From positions 544,206 to 608,205 of the forward strand of contig DASWIS010000008.1 in the NCBI GenBank assembly GCA_036397555.1: 64,000 bases of DNA, given 5' to 3'. Each line of letters begins with the position of its first letter. The stretch's first letter is position 1. Position numbers and translations under genes: made by a program. This document shows, in pieces, positions 18,330-26,709 of the stretch. The DNA comes from Candidatus Zixiibacteriota bacterium. Lineage in GTDB: Bacteria; Zixibacteria; MSB-5A5; WJJR01. Under the pieces are notes generated by a model, which saw only the letters and a list, made by a program, of their open reading frames with translations, did not search any database and had not been told where the DNA came from.

Positions 18330-18928
18330 GTGACACCGCCCCCCGACCCGCCGCGTTTCTCGACCGTGACGGGACCCTCATCGTCGAATACGGATACCTC
18401 GGCGATCCGGCATTGGTCGAGCCGCTGCCGGGAGCGGTCGAAGCCGTACGAATCCTGCATGCGGCAGGATACCATGTTTTCGGCGTGTCGAATCAATCGG
18501 GCGTGGCGCGCGGATACTATGATGCTGAAACAGTTGACGCAGTTAATCAGCGGATTATCGATGAGTTCGATGAGATGGGGGCGCGAATCGACCGGATCTA
18601 TTACTGTCCGCATCTGCCCACGGGGAGCGGAGCGATGCGCGAATCCGACTGCGAATGCCGCAAACCCAAAGATGGAATGGTACGGCTGGCGCAGCGGGAA
18701 TTCCGTATCGACATGTCACGGTCGTTTGTCGTCGGCGATCAGCAGGCGGACCTCGGGCTGGCACGGTCCATCGGAGTCCCCGGCTATCTGGTCCTCACCG
18801 GTTTCGGCCAGGAGACACGAAGCGCGCTCAGCCCGGGACTCGCAGACAATTTCATCGCCGACAATCTGCTCGATGCGGTCCGCCGACACGTCGGACGCAG
18901 CGCGCACAATCGTCAACCGCTTCCCTGA
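18326..18928 (+). CDS. gmhB: D,D-heptose 1,7-bisphosphate phosphatase (HAD)
   Basis: FLDRDGTL HAD motif I, CxC cluster (CECRKPK), GDQQAD motif. Confidence 0.8.
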   Translation: MSDTAPRPAAFLDRDGTLIVEYGYLGDPALVEPLPGAVEAVRILHAAGYHVFGVSNQSGVARGYYDAETVDAVNQRIIDEFDEMGARIDRIYYCPHLPTGSGAMRESDCECRKPKDGMVRLAQREFRIDMSRSFVVGDQQADLGLARSIGVPGYLVLTGFGQETRSALSPGLADNFIADNLLDAVRRHVGRSAHNRQPLP

Positions 18929-21306: not shown

Positions 21307-21849
21307 ATGAAATCCCGCGGCAAAATCATCGTTGTGCCGCTCGGCGACCTCGACTTTTACCAGATCAACAAGCTCGCCGCCAATCTCTCGGTCGCGTTCT
21401 CGGCCGGAGTCGACATCCTGCAGGGAATCGAGCTGCCCGACGAGGCCGAAAACGAGGAACGCGGCCAGTACTATGCCACTGTCATCCTCACCAAGCTGGA
21501 GATGATGCGCCAGAACGAAACCGAGCGCATCTTCGGGATTACCGAAGAAGACCTGTATGTCCCCACCACGCAGTTTGTCTATGGCGAGGCCGACCCGGTG
21601 TCGGGGTGCGCGATCATGTCGTTTTTCCGGTTGCGGATGGAGTTCTACGGTCTGCCCGAGGACGACAAGATGATCTATTCGCGTTCGCTCAAAGAAGCGA
21701 TTCGCCTCCTGGGCCAACTGTACAATCTCAACACCTGCGGCAATCCGCGCTGCGTGATGTTCCACTCAAACTCGATGCAGGAGATCGACGATAAGAATCC
21801 CCGTTTCTGCGACAACTGCCAGCGCCGTCTCGTGCGGCAGCGGGTGTGA
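21307..21849 (+). CDS. archaemetzincin-like protein with degenerate HEXXH
   Basis: C-terminus CGNPRCVMFHSNSMQEIDDKNPRFCDNC matches the archaemetzincin Cys4 motif. The position of HEXXHXXGXXH reads KEAIRLLGQLY. Confidence 0.6.
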   Translation: MKSRGKIIVVPLGDLDFYQINKLAANLSVAFSAGVDILQGIELPDEAENEERGQYYATVILTKLEMMRQNETERIFGITEEDLYVPTTQFVYGEADPVSGCAIMSFFRLRMEFYGLPEDDKMIYSRSLKEAIRLLGQLYNLNTCGNPRCVMFHSNSMQEIDDKNPRFCDNCQRRLVRQRV

Positions 21850-21901
21850 CTCCGCGCAATGCTTGTCCTTTCCCCGGATGAAGTGGAGAGCTTCCTTTTA
21901 T

Positions 21902-21936
21902 CCTCTCCCCTCTGGGGGAGAGGGTAGGGTGAGGGG
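21902..21936 (+). repeat. hairpin repeat copy B
   Basis: cctctcccc-tct-ggggagagg followed by gtagggtgaggg. Lies just after the archaemetzincin-like gene. Confidence 0.65.
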
Positions 21937-21962: not shown

Positions 21963-22196
21963 TTGCAGAAAAACAACGTGGCCGATCGTCAATCCCAACC
22001 GCCCCGTTCCACCGGTCTGTATCGTCTCGGTCGGATTGTCCAGATTCTCGGCCTGATCATCGGGCTGGAGGCGCTCTTGGTCTTCGGCGCCGAACCAAGC
22101 GAAGGCCCGATGATCTATGTCACGTTGGCGGCGGTCGCCGTCTTTTACATTGGGCACTGGCTGGTCAAACGCAGCGGCGCGACGAAGGCGGAGTAG
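21963..22196 (+). CDS. small 2-TM membrane protein, hypothetical
   Basis: ORF with two hydrophobic helices. No similarity recognised. Confidence 0.35.
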   Translation: MQKNNVADRQSQPPRSTGLYRLGRIVQILGLIIGLEALLVFGAEPSEGPMIYVTLAAVAVFYIGHWLVKRSGATKAE

Positions 22197-22289: not shown

Positions 22290-22383
22290 CCAAGAGTCCC
22301 CAAGAAAGTGATGGACACAAGCGTCGCAACGCGCTACAACCATCGTGACGGGTTGACTTGCGCGCCACGTCCTTGAGCAAATC
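22290..22383 (+). repeat. imperfect direct repeat L (~80% identical to 24109-24204)
   Basis: Shares ccaaga..cccc-aagaaagtgatggacac..gcgctac..ttgcgcgcca..cttgagcaaatc with the helicase 5' region. Confidence 0.7.
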
Positions 22384-23643
22384 ATGGAACAAGAGATTGC
22401 CACTGAGTTGGAGAGTGCCGCGACGGATTCCGAATCTGATGAGGTCCGAACTAGACCTATTGTCCACAGATTCTCCACATTCCTCAGGGATCTTCTTGCT
22501 GCGACGTTTTGGACTTACCTGATTACCAAGCTCTTCGTGACAGATCTCGATGCATTGCTCGTTAATCGATTCATTCCTGCACAGTCATGGCTGACGGAGT
22601 TCAAGTTCTTCATCCTGCTAGCCGTGTATGCCGCACTACTGTTGATTGCTGGCGTCAAGCCAGTTCTAAGGTGGTCTCTCTACACGGTCCTGTTTCCAAT
22701 CATTGTACTCGCGTGGAAATTCCCAGTCTTCATCTTCAAGCGAGAAAAGTGGATGCTTTCGCTCGCAATGGCTGATGTTGCTTTCTCGTTCTTCAAATCC
22801 TTCCGGTTTAACGTCGTGATCACCGCACTCTTCCTGTGCTCCTTCGCCCTGGCGCTCGCTGCGGCAAGTCCGTGGCTTCTCTGGCCCGCGACGGTGGTCA
22901 TGCTGGCGACCCTGTCCGTGGTCTACTATCAGAGATTCAGGGTCATTTTCAAGCCTTCAGGGCTGTATCAAATGCATATCAAGGTATTTCGCGAGCTGCG
23001 AACGAGTGCGAGTAAATCCTTCGCTCTCGACGAGAGTATCAAGACTCTGTCCGTGGATCGACTGGATGAAGAGCAGATTCAGAAGCGGGTTGCCACACTA
23101 CAAACGCCGGTGCTGTTTAACAGGGTCTGTTGCTTCGTGGCGAAGAAGCTGAGAGACTATCAAAACAGTGGATTGAACATCATGTTGTATGGCATGACGA
23201 TTCTTTTCATGATAATTCTTACGACTCTTTCGTTTTCCGCGATAAACTTTGCCGTTTTCAAGATCAATGAAGGGCTATTCGAGTTCACGTACGATCCCAA
23301 CTACTTTACTTTTATCTTCTATAGTTTCAACAATCTACTCTTCAATTCAATCAGAGATCTTGGCCCTATCGGCATGTTGTCGCAGGCCGTATCGATGATC
23401 CAGTCGTTGTTTTCATTCTCTCTGGTGGCAATTCTTGTGACTCTCTTCTTCTCCTTACGCAATCAACGGTACACCGAGGAGCTCAACGAGGTCATTTCGG
23501 GGATGGAAACAGAGGGGCATGAGATGGAGCGCTTCATAATAGATGAGTACAGACTAGGTAGCATAGAGGAGGCCATGGCAGAACTTCAGAACGCAAAGGC
23601 AAGTTTCGCAAAATTCATCTACAAGATATCCGAGAGCCTCTAA
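22384..23643 (+). CDS. polytopic membrane protein (≥8 TM), hypothetical, in a low-GC island
   Basis: 419 aa. Acidic N-terminus, two TM bundles separated by a soluble linker. GC ~45-48% by eye. Starts immediately after repeat L. Confidence 0.6.
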   Translation: MEQEIATELESAATDSESDEVRTRPIVHRFSTFLRDLLAATFWTYLITKLFVTDLDALLVNRFIPAQSWLTEFKFFILLAVYAALLLIAGVKPVLRWSLYTVLFPIIVLAWKFPVFIFKREKWMLSLAMADVAFSFFKSFRFNVVITALFLCSFALALAAASPWLLWPATVVMLATLSVVYYQRFRVIFKPSGLYQMHIKVFRELRTSASKSFALDESIKTLSVDRLDEEQIQKRVATLQTPVLFNRVCCFVAKKLRDYQNSGLNIMLYGMTILFMIILTTLSFSAINFAVFKINEGLFEFTYDPNYFTFIFYSFNNLLFNSIRDLGPIGMLSQAVSMIQSLFSFSLVAILVTLFFSLRNQRYTEELNEVISGMETEGHEMERFIIDEYRLGSIEEAMAELQNAKASFAKFIYKISESL

Positions 23644-24108
23644 TTCGATCCGTTTGTAGCGCTTCACTATGTTGCAGTAATTCTTCTCGTCCACCGTCGA
23701 ATCGCTTGCCAAGGACTTACTCCCTAATTGGGTATGAGAACTCGATTCTGCAGATGTTTGTTTCCGGGGGCAATCAGAGGGCATGCTATGTGGTTTGTTC
23801 TGTATCTGCCTCCAGTTCGCCTCTTTGCTTCGCGCTCTGCAACAATTCTCGTAAAAGCCTTTCTGCCACATACTTTGCCGGTGTGACACCCGCTTGTGTT
23901 GACTTCGTGCCGAACTCGGAGGTGCACGTAACGGTGGCACTTCCAACACAGAATTCAGCGCGGTCCAGATGCGGCCCAAACTCTGTCACTACTGACTCAA
24001 ACTTTCGTCCATTGCTCAAGACGTCCTCCTGTGATTCCCGGTAACCCACACCATTGCACGATTCTCCGCATCTTGTAATCTGTCATCCCTCTTCATCAAT
24101 CTGAGGGG

Positions 24109-24204
24109 CCAAGATGTCCCCCCCAAGAAAGTGATGGACACGCGCCTCCCCCTGCGCTACCACCAGCGTGATGGGCTGGCTTGCGCGCCATGACACTTGA
24201 GCAA
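24109..24204 (+). repeat. imperfect direct repeat R, spans the helicase start codon
   Basis: Aligns to 22290-22383. Includes TTG 24181/ATG 24190 and codons TLEQI. Confidence 0.7.
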
Positions 24205-26517
24205 ATCCTCGAACGGCTGCGGCACGATCCCAATGTCGCGCATTGGCACACGCTTGAGGCGGCGGACGGGGTCTATGCCGATTTTCCTGCGAGTCTGGAC
24301 CCACGGCTGGCCGAGGCGGCGAAGCGACGGGGCATTCGGCGGCTCTATCGCCACCAAGCCGACAGCGTCGAGCAAGTCGCCGTCGGACGCAATGTGGTTG
24401 TGGTCACGCCGACTGCTTCAGGAAAGACCCTCTGCTACAATCTGCCGGTATTAAACGCGGTGTTGGCCGATCCCTCGGCGCGGGCGCTGTACCTGTTTCC
24501 GACCAAAGCGTTGGCGCAGGATCAAAAGTCCGAACTGCTTGGCTGGATCGAGGCGCTCGAGGCCGATATCAAGGCGCACACCTTCGATGGCGACACCCCG
24601 GCGATGGCGCGGCGCGCGGTCCGCATCTCCGGGCATGTCGTGGTCACCAATCCCGACATGCTGCACACCGGGATTCTGCCGCATCACACCAAATGGGTCA
24701 AACTCTTCGAGAATCTGCGCTTTGTCGTCATCGACGAACTGCACCACTACCGCGGCGTCTTCGGCTCGCATCTGGGCAATGTGATCCGGCGTTTGCTGCG
24801 CATTGCCCGGTTCTACAACGCCGATCCGCAATTCATCGCCTGCTCCGCGACCATCCACAATCCCGGCGAGCTGGCCGAACGGATCGTGGGCAGGCCCTTC
24901 ACCGTGATCGACCAAAGCGGCGCGCCGACCGCGCAGAAGCATGTGATCTTCTACAACCCGCCGGTCGTCAATGAGCCGCTCGGCATCCGTCGGTCGTCGC
25001 TTTCGGTTGCCAACCAATTGGCGGCGACATTCCTGACCAACCAAGTCTCAACCATCGTCTTCGCACGGATGCGTCGCTCCGTAGAAGTCATCCTCACATA
25101 TTTGCGTGAGCATCTGCGACGGGAAAAGCAGGACCCGAATCTGGTCGAGGGATACCGAGGCGGGTATCTCCCCAACGAACGACGCAGCATCGAACGCGGG
25201 CTGCGCGAGGGATCGATCCGCGGCGTGGTCTCGACCAATGCCCTCGAACTGGGAGTCGATGTCGGCGCGCTCGATGTGGCGATCCTGACCGGCTACCCCG
25301 GCACCGTGGCCTCGCTTTGGCAACAGATCGGCCGCGCCGGAAGGCGCTCCGGCTTGTCCGCCGCAATACTTGTCGCTAATTCCTCGCCGATCGATCAATT
25401 CCTGATGCGCAATCCCGAATACCTGATCGGCCGCTCGGTCGAGTCGGGCATTATCGATCCAACCAATCTTGTCGTGCTAATGTCGCACTTGAAATGCGCG
25501 GCATTTGAGCTGCCGTTCTCGGAGGACGACAAGTTCGGCGTAGACCACACCCTGCCGATGTTGCAATACCTTGAGCAGAACCGCGTCTTGACACGTTCGG
25601 CGGGGCGCTTCTTCTGGGCATCGGAGGTGTATCCCGCCGCCGAGGTCTCGCTGCGTTCGGCATCGCCGGAAAACTTCGTCATTCACAACAGTTCCGATGG
25701 CAACAAGATCATCGGCGAGGTCGACTATTTCTCCGCGCCCGTCTTCCTGCATCCCGAGGCGATATATCTGCATGGCGCCGAGCAATACCAAGTCGAGGAA
25801 CTCGACTGGGATGGACGGCGCGCGTATGTGAAATCAGTCGATGTCGAATACTTCACCGACGCCGAGACCAAGACCGACTTAAAGATTCTCACAGTCGACA
25901 AAGACCGCCGCACCCCCGATGCGCGCCTGTCCTGCGGTGAAGTTGCGTTGACCACGGTCGCGGTGCTCTACAAAAAGATTCGCTTCCACACGCACGAGAA
26001 TGTCGGCTCCGGGCAGATTCGTCTCCCCGAACTCGAGATGCACACGACTGCGTTTTGGATCGAGTTTCCTGAAAACGTCTTAGAGCGGCTCGATCTTCCG
26101 ATCGGCCAGACCGGCTCGGTCCTGCATGCTGCCGCCAACGCCTTGGGACAGATGGCGCCTTTGTGGGTGATGGCCGATCCGCGCGATGTCGGCGCGCTTT
26201 CACAGGTGCGCTCGCCGCGTTCGGGGCTGCCGACTCTGTACCTTTACGACAACATCCCCGGCGGAGTGGGATTCTCGCAGCGCATCTACGAAATGGCAGG
26301 CCAGCTCTTCACCGAGACCGCCAACATGATCGCCGCCTGCCCCTGCCGCAGCGGGTGCCCATCGTGCGTCGCACCCGAAATGGCAGTCGGCGCAACCGGC
26401 AAACGCGGCGCGGAGGCATTATTGCGTTTCGCCGCCGCTACCGCCGACCTCTCACTTGACCCGATCATCGATCAGCCGGTCGCCGAGCTCGCCGCCGATG
26501 AAGGCGGGATGGATTGA
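24181..26517 (+). CDS. DEAD/DEAH-box helicase with C-terminal Cys4 domain (MrfA/YprA-like, COG1205/DUF1998)
   Basis: Walker A TPTASGKT, DELH box, helicase C motifs (QQIGRAGRR). C-terminal CPCRSGCPSCV zinc motif. Possible starts are TTG 24181 or ATG 24190. Confidence 0.85.
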   Translation: MRAMTLEQILERLRHDPNVAHWHTLEAADGVYADFPASLDPRLAEAAKRRGIRRLYRHQADSVEQVAVGRNVVVVTPTASGKTLCYNLPVLNAVLADPSARALYLFPTKALAQDQKSELLGWIEALEADIKAHTFDGDTPAMARRAVRISGHVVVTNPDMLHTGILPHHTKWVKLFENLRFVVIDELHHYRGVFGSHLGNVIRRLLRIARFYNADPQFIACSATIHNPGELAERIVGRPFTVIDQSGAPTAQKHVIFYNPPVVNEPLGIRRSSLSVANQLAATFLTNQVSTIVFARMRRSVEVILTYLREHLRREKQDPNLVEGYRGGYLPNERRSIERGLREGSIRGVVSTNALELGVDVGALDVAILTGYPGTVASLWQQIGRAGRRSGLSAAILVANSSPIDQFLMRNPEYLIGRSVESGIIDPTNLVVLMSHLKCAAFELPFSEDDKFGVDHTLPMLQYLEQNRVLTRSAGRFFWASEVYPAAEVSLRSASPENFVIHNSSDGNKIIGEVDYFSAPVFLHPEAIYLHGAEQYQVEELDWDGRRAYVKSVDVEYFTDAETKTDLKILTVDKDRRTPDARLSCGEVALTTVAVLYKKIRFHTHENVGSGQIRLPELEMHTTAFWIEFPENVLERLDLPIGQTGSVLHAAANALGQMAPLWVMADPRDVGALSQVRSPRSGLPTLYLYDNIPGGVGFSQRIYEMAGQLFTETANMIAACPCRSGCPSCVAPEMAVGATGKRGAEALLRFAAATADLSLDPIIDQPVAELAADEGGMD

Positions 26518-26534: not shown

Positions 26535-26709
26535 ATGGGCGTGTTGAAAAACCCATTTGAACCCACATAATCGAGTTTCATGGAAGTAATCATTCGGGTC
26601 ATTCCGAGCGAAGCGAGGAATCTCCAACGCGTTGTCGGCGGCCACTCGCGCATCGAGACCCCTCGCTCCGCTCGGGGTGACATCAAATTGGGCTTTTTCA
26701 ACACGCCCA
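26535..26709. mobile_element. MITE-like element with nested inverted repeats
   Basis: Outer IR ggcgtgttgaaaaacccatttga (26538-26560) pairs with tcaaattgggctttttcaacacgcc (26683-26707). Inner IR gtcattccgagcgaagcgagg (26598-26618) pairs with cctcgctccgctcggggtgac (26661-26681). Confidence 0.5.

What the first reader, a model, noticed from the sequence alone, without database searches (positions are those of the whole stretch)
22290..24204. Low-GC island encoding a 419 aa polytopic membrane protein, flanked by ~95 bp imperfect direct repeats that duplicate the 5' end of the MrfA-like helicase gene
The repeats at 22290-22383 and 24109-24204 share ~80% identity, including ttgcgcgcca....cttgagcaaatc. 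In the right copy this spans the helicase start (M-T-L-E-Q-I). In the left copy the same LEQI codons are in frame with, and fused to, the start of the island gene (..LEQIMEQEI..). The island therefore inserted into the helicase 5' region with target duplication and took over a copy of its upstream region. The cargo is a ≥8-TM protein with no recognisable family. Two small possible ORFs lie on the minus strand. GC is ~45-48% against ~65% flanks (by eye). The mobilisation mechanism is unknown, with no transposase or integrase present. The membrane protein could be a defence or abortive-infection effector or a transporter.
Basis: seen in the sequence. Interest (0 to 1): 0.75.

Follow-up and report, generated by a model that had tools for sequence, protein, structure and literature searches.

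The report
Channel gene islet borrowing helicase promoter
A 1.7 kb piece of foreign DNA carrying one gene for a predicted ion-channel-like membrane protein sits just inside the start of a DNA-repair helicase gene in a Zixibacteria genome. The helicase's upstream control region was duplicated, so both genes have a copy. The gene belongs to a large, unnamed family often found next to anti-phage defence genes.

Summary
Two direct copies of about 95 bp (22290-22383 and 24109-24204, 82-83% identical) flank a low-GC segment (48.9% against 59.9% for the window) that encodes a 419 aa membrane protein.

Five related Zixibacteria genomes (helicase 72-80% identical) keep the same gene order but have no island and only one copy of the segment. 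That segment is the conserved upstream region, short leader and first codons of the MrfA-like helicase gene. The two window copies share 8 derived bases that the relatives lack, so the duplication arose within this lineage. The left copy has lost the helicase start (ATG to ACG, plus a 1-nt deletion) and now sits directly before the island gene.

Homologs are lone, low-GC genes. They often sit beside restriction-modification and other defence genes, or on plasmids and integrative elements. A defence or stress channel is the best guess and is unproven. The insertion mechanism is unresolved: there is no recombinase, no terminal inverted repeats, and no second copy elsewhere. The minus-strand ORFs are unsupported.

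The parts
21307..21849 (+). Peptidase M54 (archaemetzincin-like) gene. It is the conserved left neighbour and defines the synteny block.
   Evidence: Pfam PF07998, E = 7.7e-20. The same gene lies upstream of the helicase in L001, L156, L159, L161 and L162.
21963..22196 (+). Small (77 aa) membrane protein gene. This is context, not part of the island. It is present only here and in L001.
   Evidence: It is absent from L156, L159, L161 and L162.
22290..22383 (+). Left copy of the duplicated helicase upstream region, leader and first codons. It carries the conserved block CAAGAAAGTGATGGAC (22301-22316), a -35-like TGGACA (22312-22317), a 17-nt spacer and a -10-like TACAAC (22335-22340). The helicase start has degenerated (ACG, 1-nt deletion), and the LEQI codons remain. 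It is inferred to drive the island gene.
   Evidence: Promoter function is inferred from the conservation pattern and was not flagged by the sigma-70 scan.
22384..23643 (+). Island gene: a 419 aa polytopic membrane protein. Predicted layout: about 6 N-terminal TM helices, a ~70 aa cytoplasmic helical linker, a TM / pore-helix / loop / TM module (about residues 264-355; pore helix 307-319, then NSIRD), and a C-terminal cytoplasmic helical domain.
23644..24108 (.). Foreign 3' spacer of the island (50.8% GC) with no supported gene. The 87 aa minus-strand ORF at 23786-24049 is an orphan.
   Evidence: No gene is called here (between the 419 aa gene and the helicase gene) in the loci. No similarity to the rest of the window or to loci carrying homologs. 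No codon-position GC signature. The ORF matches only itself.
24109..24204 (+). Right copy: the working helicase upstream region. It carries the conserved block (24124-24139), TGGACA (24135-24140), a 17-nt spacer, TACCAC (24158-24163), the leader, and the start ATG at 24190 followed by the TLEQ codons.
24190..26517 (+). MrfA-like DEAD/DEAH helicase gene (775 aa). It is the resident gene whose 5' end was the insertion target, and it is intact.
   Evidence: Pfam DEAD, Helicase_C, WHD_HRQ1 and MZB (MrfA Zn-binding) domains. TIGR03817-like. Orthologs at 72-80% identity in conserved synteny.

Best explanation
**What is shown.** A segment of about 1.73 kb (22384-24108) of foreign, lower-GC DNA lies immediately after codon 6 of a resident MrfA-like helicase gene. 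About 95-100 bp of that gene's own upstream region, leader and first codons is present on both sides. Related genomes carry this segment once and have no island.

**Inferred history.** The duplication arose in this lineage when the DNA was captured, through an illegitimate (non-transposase) event. It is not recent. The copies are 17% diverged, with the conserved -35-like block intact and the spacer scrambled. This is the same pattern seen between species, which suggests both copies are kept as working control regions.

**Inferred expression.** The promoterless island gene, whose ATG lies at the junction, is transcribed from the left copy. The helicase is transcribed from the right copy.

**Predicted product.** The protein is a member of a large unnamed family. 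Its C-terminal half is predicted to fold like the pore module of tetrameric P-loop cation channels, with a non-K+ filter (NSI-x-E/D). It therefore most likely forms a gated, non-K+-selective cation channel.

**Least certain step.** Family members are lone, compositionally foreign genes scattered across phyla, often in restriction-modification or defence islands and on plasmids or integrative elements. From this I infer that the channel acts as a membrane-depolarising defence or stress effector rather than in housekeeping ion transport.
For: **Insertion.**
- Five empty sites with the same synteny and a single copy of the segment.
- GC 48.9% against 59.9%, and GC3 0.62 against 0.75-0.81 for the neighbouring genes.

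**Nature of the repeat.**
- The block CAAGAAA[G/A]TGATGGAC and a TA..A element 17-18 nt downstream are invariant in all seven sequences, while the spacer is free to vary.
- There is one copy per relative, always upstream of the helicase, and none elsewhere in the window.

**In-lineage duplication.**
- The left and right copies share 8 derived states against the relatives.
- Left-right identity is 69/83, against 49-54/81-84 for either copy versus the four relatives aligned along the whole segment (L159, L161, L162, L001).
- The left copy carries the degenerate start.

**Age.**
- The copies are 17% diverged.
- The gene's GC (48%) is far above that of its homologs (27-38%), which fits long residence in a 60% GC genome.

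**Channel fold.**
- AF2 pLDDT is 82-91 across the pore module.
- Foldseek gives probability 0.99-1.0 local matches to KirBac and to 80-120 aa viral K+ channels, with target TM-scores 0.71-0.81.
- One homolog has a weak Lig_chan hit.

**Family and neighbourhoods.**
- 1,345 representatives of 50%-identity clusters; sources name members only 'hypothetical protein' or 'Transmembrane protein'.
- Neighbours include type II R-M with LexA-like repressors, type I R-M, YopA and DUF5677, a GmrSD/REase-like gene plus an OLD/AriA/GajA-like gene, and Mrr, PDC-S11, PDC-M50A, a TIR protein and ZacA.
- Others lie next to a large serine recombinase and T4SS genes or on plasmids.
- The family gene always has lower GC than its flanks.
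Against: **Channel assignment.**
- There is no sequence-level link to any channel family. hhalign against NaK is insignificant, and there are no Pfam or PDB-sequence hits.
- Foldseek global E-values are all above 0.04.
- The model is only moderately confident overall, and the N-terminal 130 residues are poor.
- Tetramerisation and conductance are untested.

**Defence role.**
- It rests on about 11 neighbourhoods, not on an enrichment statistic.
- There is no PADLOC hit and no family member was found in phages.
- In this genome the neighbours are housekeeping genes.

**Promoter.**
- It is inferred from conservation only. The sigma-70 scan did not call it, and there are no expression data.

**Mechanism.**
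- No known mechanism produces a 95 bp target duplication.
- The right copy is about as similar to L156's promoter part (38/48) as to the left copy (40/50), so the dating is soft.
- No relative closer than 80% helicase identity exists in the databases.
- Homologs examined elsewhere show no flanking duplications, so this architecture is a one-off.
Confidence: 0.55

Rival explanations
1. The island is the decayed remnant of a site-specific integrative element, in the manner of a cis-mobilisable element. Under this reading the two repeats are attL and attR of an element that targets the 5' end of the helicase gene. The element would carry its own replacement promoter and first codons so that the target stays functional. 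The integrase and other genes would have been deleted since.
For: - Direct repeats flank foreign DNA at the end of a conserved gene.
- There is a perfectly identical 21-nt block that could be a crossover core.
- A 465 bp non-coding tail could be degraded element DNA.
- One homolog lies next to a large serine recombinase in an integrative element, and others lie near integrases on a plasmid.
Against: - No recombinase within 6 kb on either side.
- The two copies share 8 derived states that the relatives lack. This is not expected if one arm came in with an element from another host, unless gene conversion has occurred.
- No other copy of the repeat or the element exists in any collection searched.
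- Homologs in other genomes lack comparable flanking repeats.
- The cargo's ATG lies exactly at the junction, which would be unusual for an att site.
Confidence: 0.2
2. The insertion is real, but the protein is an ordinary physiological ion channel or transporter acquired by horizontal transfer, for example for osmotic or ionic homeostasis. It would have no role in defence or in conflict between genetic elements.
For: - The fold resembles ordinary K+/cation channels.
- In this genome it sits among housekeeping genes.
- Some neighbourhoods show no defence genes (L163 and L165).
- There is no hit to any defence HMM.
Against: - The family has a patchy distribution across unrelated phyla at about 45-50% identity.
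- The gene's GC is always below that of its flanks.
- It is repeatedly adjacent to R-M, Mrr, GmrSD, OLD and TIR genes, to candidate defence genes, and to mobile elements.
- It has no conserved partner genes or operon.
- Its closest species-level relatives lack it.
Confidence: 0.3
3. The arrangement is ancestral. The common ancestor carried the gene between two promoter copies, and the five relatives each lost it by recombination between the repeats, which would leave exactly one copy.
For: Deletion between direct repeats would produce exactly the observed 'empty' sites, so a single empty site cannot distinguish loss from gain (logic).
Against: - All five relatives lack it and only one species has it.
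- The gene and the spacer are compositionally foreign.
- The nearest protein homologs are 49% identical and lie in unrelated phyla.
- The two copies share derived states that are absent from the single copies of the relatives.
Confidence: 0.04
4. The repeats are simply two instances of a common regulatory motif found at many promoters, and are not a duplication.
For: The core block behaves like a conserved regulatory element across species.
Against: - There are only two instances in 64 kb, even with 2-3 mismatches allowed.
- The similarity runs for about 95 nt, through the leader and into the helicase codons.
- Relatives have one instance each, always at the helicase.
- 59 of the 60 metagenome loci with the 18-mer show no similarity to the M54 peptidase, the helicase or the island gene and look like chance matches.
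Confidence: 0.02

Closest known systems
Tetrameric P-loop (pore-loop) cation channels: KcsA, KirBac/Kir, NaK, MthK, Slo2.2 pore, giant-virus Kcv-type mini channels
   Different: - No TxGYG selectivity filter. The family has a conserved FYYSFNNLLF pore helix followed by NSI-x-E/D.
- No Pfam Ion_trans_2, IRK or Lig_chan membership for the window protein, and no detectable sequence relationship.
- A different N-terminal ~6-TM domain, a ~70 aa cytoplasmic linker before the pore module, and a C-terminal helical domain.
- It is a patchy, island-borne gene rather than a core gene.
Hailong HalA, a DNA-gated tetrameric ion-channel effector of an anti-phage system (Tan et al. 2025, as summarised in PMC13434031)
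   Different: - HalA works with the nucleotidyltransferase HalB in a two-gene operon, whereas this family has no conserved partner gene.
- There is no sequence similarity: the profile search of PDB sequences found nothing at E <= 10.
- The fold match is weaker than the match to K+ channels.
Cis-mobilisable elements and decayed genomic islands bounded by attL/attR direct repeats (from general knowledge)
   Same: Foreign DNA without a recombinase, bounded by direct repeats, lies at the end of a conserved gene that remains functional.
   Different: - The repeats are about 95 bp at 83% identity and are paralogous copies of the host's own promoter and leader, with shared derived states.
- The cargo is a single gene whose ATG lies at the junction.
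- No related element or integrase was found anywhere.
Promoterless gene cassettes expressed from a resident promoter, such as integron cassettes (from general knowledge)
   Same: A single promoterless ORF is placed directly behind a resident promoter.
   Different: There is no IntI within 6 kb, no attC-like element was recognised, and the promoter itself is duplicated rather than shared.

Membership tests
Tetrameric P-loop cation channel superfamily (K+-channel-like) | A transmembrane helix / re-entrant pore helix / filter loop / transmembrane helix module | tested here: met
Tetrameric P-loop cation channel superfamily (K+-channel-like) | A K+ selectivity signature T-x-G-Y/F-G after the pore helix | tested here: not met
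   The family consensus after the pore helix is N-S-I-x-E/D (SIRD in the window protein), with no GYG. If it is a channel, it is not K+-selective.
Tetrameric P-loop cation channel superfamily (K+-channel-like) | A sequence-profile match to Pfam Ion_trans_2, Ion_trans, IRK or Lig_chan | tested here: not met
   The window protein has no Pfam families at E <= 1. One distant homolog has a sub-threshold Lig_chan hit (E = 0.002, 18.4 bits against a cutoff of 30.8). hhalign against NaK is not significant.
Tetrameric P-loop cation channel superfamily (K+-channel-like) | Homotetrameric assembly around a central pore, and ion conduction | not testable with these tools
   Only single-chain prediction was available. 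This needs multimer modelling, cryo-EM or electrophysiology.
Known anti-phage defence systems (PADLOC-DB v2.0) | A match to a defence-protein HMM | tested here: not met
   No PADLOC families at E <= 1.
Known anti-phage defence systems (PADLOC-DB v2.0) | Preferential location in defence islands | tested here: inconclusive
   About 5 of 11 independent neighbourhoods have R-M or defence genes immediately adjacent, and about 4 are on plasmids or integrative elements. No background-corrected enrichment was computed.
Known anti-phage defence systems (PADLOC-DB v2.0) | Experimental protection against phage | not testable with these tools
   No literature on this family was found.
Hailong (HalA/HalB) | A two-gene operon with the nucleotidyltransferase HalB | tested here: not met
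   There is no conserved neighbouring gene across the contexts. The immediate downstream genes in L092 and L166 are unrelated to each other, and none is present in the window.
Hailong (HalA/HalB) | Sequence homology to HalA | tested here: not met
Site-specific integrative element / genomic island | Flanking direct repeats (attL/attR) | tested here: met
   There are ~95 bp direct repeats at 82-83% identity, including a 21-nt identical block.
Site-specific integrative element / genomic island | An integrase or recombinase gene in or next to the element | tested here: not met
   None lies among the called genes within 6 kb on either side. The island holds a single gene.
Site-specific integrative element / genomic island | The same element or att site recurring in other genomes or sites | tested here: not met
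   The repeat motif occurs elsewhere only as the single native copy in relatives. Homologs in other genomes lack such repeats.
Transposon / IS / MITE | Terminal inverted repeats, a short (2-15 bp) target duplication, and a transposase | tested here: not met
   There are no inverted repeats at the island ends, the duplication is ~95 bp, and no transposase is present.

The most novel reading that the evidence does not exclude
The 419 aa protein would represent a widespread family (more than 1,300 clusters at 50% identity) of stand-alone P-loop cation channels. These would work as single-gene abortive-infection or defence systems, with the sensor and the depolarising effector in one polypeptide. 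This would be a new branch of the potassium-channel superfamily recruited for immunity.

In this Zixibacteria genome the gene has been wired to a duplicated promoter of a DNA-repair helicase. In two other genomes it sits divergently next to LexA-like repressors. This hints that its expression is coupled to DNA damage or DNA-stress signals.
Probability: 0.25. Interest if true: 0.8.

Novelty: new variant of a known kind. Interest (0 to 1): 0.55.

Why it matters
**The protein family.** If the fold prediction and the neighbourhood signal hold, this is a large, unannotated branch of the pore-loop channel superfamily. It behaves like an accessory, defence-island gene across CPR bacteria, Firmicutes, Proteobacteria, Actinobacteria plasmids and Zixibacteria. 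Channel effectors in bacterial immunity have only recently been characterised (for example Hailong HalA). A stand-alone member built on a K+-channel-type pore would be easy to test and would link classical ion-channel biology with phage defence.

**The locus.** It is also a clean natural example of a promoterless foreign gene becoming expressed without loss of the resident gene, by duplication of that gene's control region. The before and after states are both visible in related genomes.

Tried and rejected
**Sequence-library searches of the 419 aa protein.** Pfam, PADLOC, NCBIfam, PHROGs and a profile search of PDB sequences gave nothing.

**hhalign of the family profile against a NaK channel sequence typed from memory.** Not significant, and misaligned.

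**AFDB50 Foldseek.** Unavailable.

**Closer empty site.**
- A metagenome scan for the 18-mer returned 60 loci. One was a real relative (L156) and 59 looked like chance matches.
- A helicase protein search found nothing between 80% and 100% identity.
- All island-bearing contigs are one strain, at 99.7-100% identity.

**Tandem-duplication remnant test.** The 465 bp spacer and the 101 bp before the left repeat have no similarity to any other part of the window, including the helicase 3' end. There is therefore no trace of a replaced helicase copy.

**Conserved partner gene.** The 242 aa genes downstream of two homologs are unrelated to each other and leave no trace in the window spacer.

**Minus-strand ORFs.** Rejected.

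**Phage carriage.** None in IMG/VR or INPHARED.

**RNA elements and terminators.**
- No Rfam RNA element lies in the repeat or leader. The only hits are a sub-threshold whalefall-1 match upstream.
- No terminator was called after the island gene.

**Promoter readings.**
- I checked a sigma-54 reading of the conserved block by eye and rejected it, because the -12 GC spacing is inconsistent among the sequences.
- I looked by eye for leader hairpin covariation between the two copies. There was no consistent pairing, so I dropped it.

**Flanking repeats around homologs in L089, L091 and L092.** None beyond chance.

**Strain variants.** The L084 SNPs fall outside the island, so they say nothing about selection on the island gene.
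Full report
**1. The observation**

The direct repeat is real.
- The repeat finder reports 22298-22367 against 24121-24190 (70 nt, 83%) and 22372-22390 against 24196-24214 (19 nt, 89%), offset by a single base.
- MAFFT extends the similarity to about 22290/24109. blastn gives 81.9% over 94 nt with E = 4.9e-19.
- The 21-nt block CCCCAAGAAAGTGATGGACAC occurs exactly twice in the 64 kb window even with three mismatches allowed, against 0 expected.

The segment between the copies has 48.9% GC, against 59.9% for the window. The lowest 300-nt windows reach 41.7%.

The 419 aa ORF (22384-23643) is called as a gene in eight independent contigs.

In the left copy the LEQI codons are in frame with the island ATG. 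There, however, the helicase ATG has become ACG, one base is deleted, and an in-frame stop lies ten codons upstream. The codons are a relic, not a translated fusion.

**2. It is an insertion: five empty sites**

The sequence comes from a candidate-division Zixibacteria genome (source names). The local gene order is aminotransferase, ROK kinase, M54 peptidase, (small membrane protein), island, helicase, then nuoJKL.

Five related genomes whose helicase is 72-80% identical keep aminotransferase-ROK-M54-helicase. They have only 137-380 bp between M54 and the helicase, and no island:

| Locus | Helicase identity |
|---|---|
| L159 | 80% |
| L161 | 78% |
| L162 | 77% |
| L156 | 76% |
| L001 | 72% |

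- No database relative lies between 80% and 100% identity.
- All island-bearing contigs are one strain, at 99.7-100% identity.
- The small 77 aa membrane gene is present only here and in L001, so it is not part of the event.

**3. What the repeated segment is**

Each relative carries, once and always upstream of the helicase, the block CAAGAAA[G/A]TGATGGAC. It is followed 17-18 nt later by G-x-T-A-x-x-A (TACCAC, TACAAC, TACTAC or similar). These positions are invariant across all seven aligned sequences, while the intervening spacer is free to vary.

The block is conserved whether or not a coding sequence overlaps it. In L001 it overlaps the stop codon of the small gene. In four other relatives that gene is absent.

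I read this as the helicase promoter: a -35-like TGGACA, a 17-nt spacer and a -10-like TAC.AC, with a conserved upstream element and a short leader. This is an inference. The generic sigma-70 scan did not flag it, and promoter rules in this phylum are not known to me.

No Rfam family matches the segment. The duplicated unit is therefore the helicase upstream region, leader and first six to eight codons. It is not a common motif: there are two instances in the window at up to 2 mismatches, and none elsewhere.

**4. Origin and age of the duplication**

- The two window copies share eight derived bases at positions where at least three of four relatives agree on another base. These include the CTTGAGCAAATC codons, against CTCGAACA[A/G]AT[C/T] in the relatives.
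- At sites where the copies differ, the right copy keeps the relatives' state at six positions and the left copy at two.
- From the motif to LEQI, left against right is 69/83. Either copy against the four relatives aligned along the whole segment (L159, L161, L162, L001) is 49-54 of 81-84.

So the copies are paralogs made within this lineage. The left one has been degenerating as a helicase start.

The differences cluster in the promoter spacer (7 of 17 positions), while the 21-nt upstream/-35 block is identical. This mirrors the between-species pattern and suggests that both copies remain under selection as control regions.

The event is not recent.
- The repeats are 17% diverged.
- The gene's GC is 48%, with GC3 at 0.62. 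Homologs are at 27-38% GC, and host genes have GC3 of 0.75-0.81.

One caveat applies. In the promoter part, the right copy is as close to L156 (38/48) as to the left copy (40/50). Dating from about 50 nt is soft.

**5. The cargo protein**

No Pfam, PADLOC, NCBIfam or PHROG model, and no PDB chain sequence, matches it. It is still not an orphan.
- 55 close homologs (about 45-50% identity, nearly all ~415-425 aa) occur in CPR bacteria, Deltaproteobacteria, Pelotomaculum, Alphaproteobacteria and others.
- A profile search of 1.84 billion cluster representatives finds 1,345 members at E <= 0.001, and 662 at E <= 1e-30. Most match along their full length.
- Sources name them only 'hypothetical protein' or 'Transmembrane protein'.

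The alignment shows strongly conserved motifs: KKLRDYQNSG and FFTFFYYSFNNLLFNSI-x-E.

The AlphaFold2 model has mean pLDDT 71.9 and pTM 0.56. Confidence is poor for residues 1-130 and reaches 82-91 in the C-terminal part. It predicts:
- about six N-terminal TM helices;
- a ~70-residue helical cytoplasmic linker;
- a long TM helix (264-294), a short re-entrant helix (307-319), a loop, and a second TM helix (331-355);
- a cytoplasmic helical tail.

Structure searches place the C-terminal module among pore-loop channels.
- Foldseek global E-values are not significant. Its local matches to KirBac, and to 80-120 aa giant-virus K+ channels, have probability 0.99-1.0 and target TM-scores of 0.71-0.81.
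- One distant homolog has a sub-threshold Lig_chan hit.
- A profile comparison with a NaK sequence is not significant, so the link is by fold only.

The position of the K+ filter (TVGYG) is occupied by N-S-I-x-E/D. If this is a channel, it is not K+-selective. A ring of acidic residues would fit a cation pore. That last point is inference from general channel knowledge.

**6. Where the family lives**

In every locus examined the family gene is a lone gene with lower GC than its flanks.

| Locus | Neighbours |
|---|---|
| L089/L090, L091 | Type II R-M modules with C-protein-like HTH and LexA-like S24 repressors, divergent from the gene |
| L092 | Type I R-M, YopA, DUF5677, and (from reading the sequence) a PD-(D/E)xK-like protein |
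| L094 | A GmrSD/REase-like gene (PADLOC E = 4e-132) and an OLD/AriA/GajA-like ATPase-TOPRIM gene, 23 and 49 bp away |
| L096 | Mrr, PDC-S11-like, PDC-M50A (E = 6e-50), a TIR protein and ZacA |
| L166 | A large serine recombinase with T4SS pilin/SLT genes |
| L163-L165 | Three plasmids: next to a relaxase and ArdC, next to integrases and DUF1016, or among hypothetical genes |

- One further context (L097) is uninformative.
- No conserved partner gene exists.
- No member was found in phage collections.

This is the usual signature of an accessory, conflict-related gene. It is still guilt by association from about eleven contexts, not a statistic. In the present genome the neighbours are housekeeping genes.

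**7. The rest of the island**

The 465 bp between the gene and the right repeat (50.8% GC) has:
- no called gene;
- no codon-position GC signature in any ORF;
- no similarity to the rest of the window or to loci carrying homologs.

The 87 aa minus-strand ORF matches only itself among 5.8 billion proteins. I treat the spacer as non-coding foreign DNA. No terminator-like site follows the island gene, so read-through into the helicase is possible.

**8. How it most likely came about and works**

- *Shown:* foreign DNA lies after helicase codon 6, and the helicase control region is present on both sides.
- *Inferred:* a one-off illegitimate capture duplicated about 95-100 bp of target. It left the promoterless foreign ORF, whose family-typical 'ME.E' start lies at the junction, behind one copy, and left the intact helicase behind the other.
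- *Against a transposon:* there are no terminal inverted repeats, the duplication is far too long, and there is no transposase.
- *Against an active integrative element:* there is no recombinase, no recurrence elsewhere, and the repeats are paralogous. A decayed element remains the main rival for the mechanism (0.2).
- *Against ancestral presence with repeated loss:* distribution, composition and the shared derived states argue against it (0.04).
- *Function:* I favour a gated cation channel used as a depolarising defence or stress effector. An ordinary physiological channel remains a serious rival (0.3).

A speculative thread links two observations. The gene sits behind the promoter of a DNA-repair-type helicase here, and next to LexA-like repressors in two other genomes. 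This would fit expression tied to DNA damage. Nothing here tests that.

**9. Comparison with known systems and novelty**

- It works like a pore-loop cation channel by predicted fold. It fails the sequence-profile and selectivity-filter criteria for any named channel family.
- It resembles Hailong HalA only in being a channel in a defence setting. It has no HalB partner and no sequence similarity.
- It is not in PADLOC, and I found no paper describing it.

I rate it a new variant of a known kind: an unnamed branch of the pore-loop channel fold with an accessory-gene lifestyle. The promoter-duplicating insertion is an uncommon but not unprecedented kind of event.

Interest is moderate (0.55). 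The family is large, and a defence role is readily testable. Here it rests on prediction and on neighbourhoods.

Noticed in passing
window 26536-26709: A ~174 bp MITE-like element lies just downstream of the helicase. It is bounded by 19-nt inverted repeats (TGGGCGTGTTGAAAAACCC / GGCTTTTTCAACACGCCCA, 95% complementary). Its interior has the 'GTCATTCCGAGCGAAGCGAGGAATC' hairpin type. Contig L085, otherwise identical to the window, diverges right at its right end (about 26708) into different genes (sigma-70, trypsin-PDZ). This is either a rearrangement or an assembly break at a repeat. No second copy exists in the window.
   Followed up: partly
window 21865-21936: A G+C-rich palindrome (TATCCTCTCCCC..GGGGAGAGGGTA) lies between the M54 gene and the small membrane gene. 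It gives a sub-threshold Rfam whalefall-1 match (23.5 bits against a gathering score of 37, E = 0.005). It is probably just a terminator-like hairpin.
   Followed up: no
L084 against window 18526-18580, 21600-21726, 24699-24756: A second strain differs from the window only in tight clusters of SNPs: 15 in 55 bp, 6 in 127 bp and 7 in 58 bp. The SNPs that fall in the M54 and helicase genes are almost all at third codon positions. This looks like short recombination tracts from a diverged relative. None falls in the island or the repeats.
   Followed up: partly
L161 3713-3900 and L162 3695-3780: In two relatives the M54-helicase intergenic region holds several copies of a REP-like palindrome (GCCGCGATC.C.GATCGCGGC). 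This spacer is a variable spot in the clade: it holds a small gene in two lineages, palindromes in two, and the island in one.
   Followed up: no
L089 4463-5896 (also L090) and L091 4773-5396: An unusual 477 aa fusion of a LexA DNA-binding domain, an S24 peptidase and an N6/N4 DNA methyltransferase lies next to a type II R-M module. It is transcribed divergently from the channel-family gene, 105 bp away. In L091 a stand-alone LexA-like protein occupies the same position. This may mean DNA-damage-responsive control of the R-M module and/or the channel gene.
   Followed up: partly
window 21963-22196 and L001 2174-2395: A small two-helix membrane protein gene lies between M54 and the helicase only in the window genome and in L001. 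In L001 its stop codon overlaps the conserved helicase-upstream block (..IEPRK* = CCAAGAAAGTGA). In the window it ends 100 nt earlier, and the PRK* codons are out of frame.
   Followed up: partly
window 23786-24049 (minus strand): An orphan ORF with an AGGAGG box upstream of an internal TTG start (77 aa form). It was called once in a JGI contig and has no homolog anywhere, so it is probably not a gene.
   Followed up: yes
P0031 (homolog, 477 aa): One family member carries an N-terminal DUF7695 domain with a Cys-rich, zinc-ribbon-like sequence (Pfam E = 1.5e-10) fused to the channel-like body. Some representatives also have 50-100 aa N-terminal extensions with no Pfam match. These could be sensor or regulatory add-ons.
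   Followed up: no
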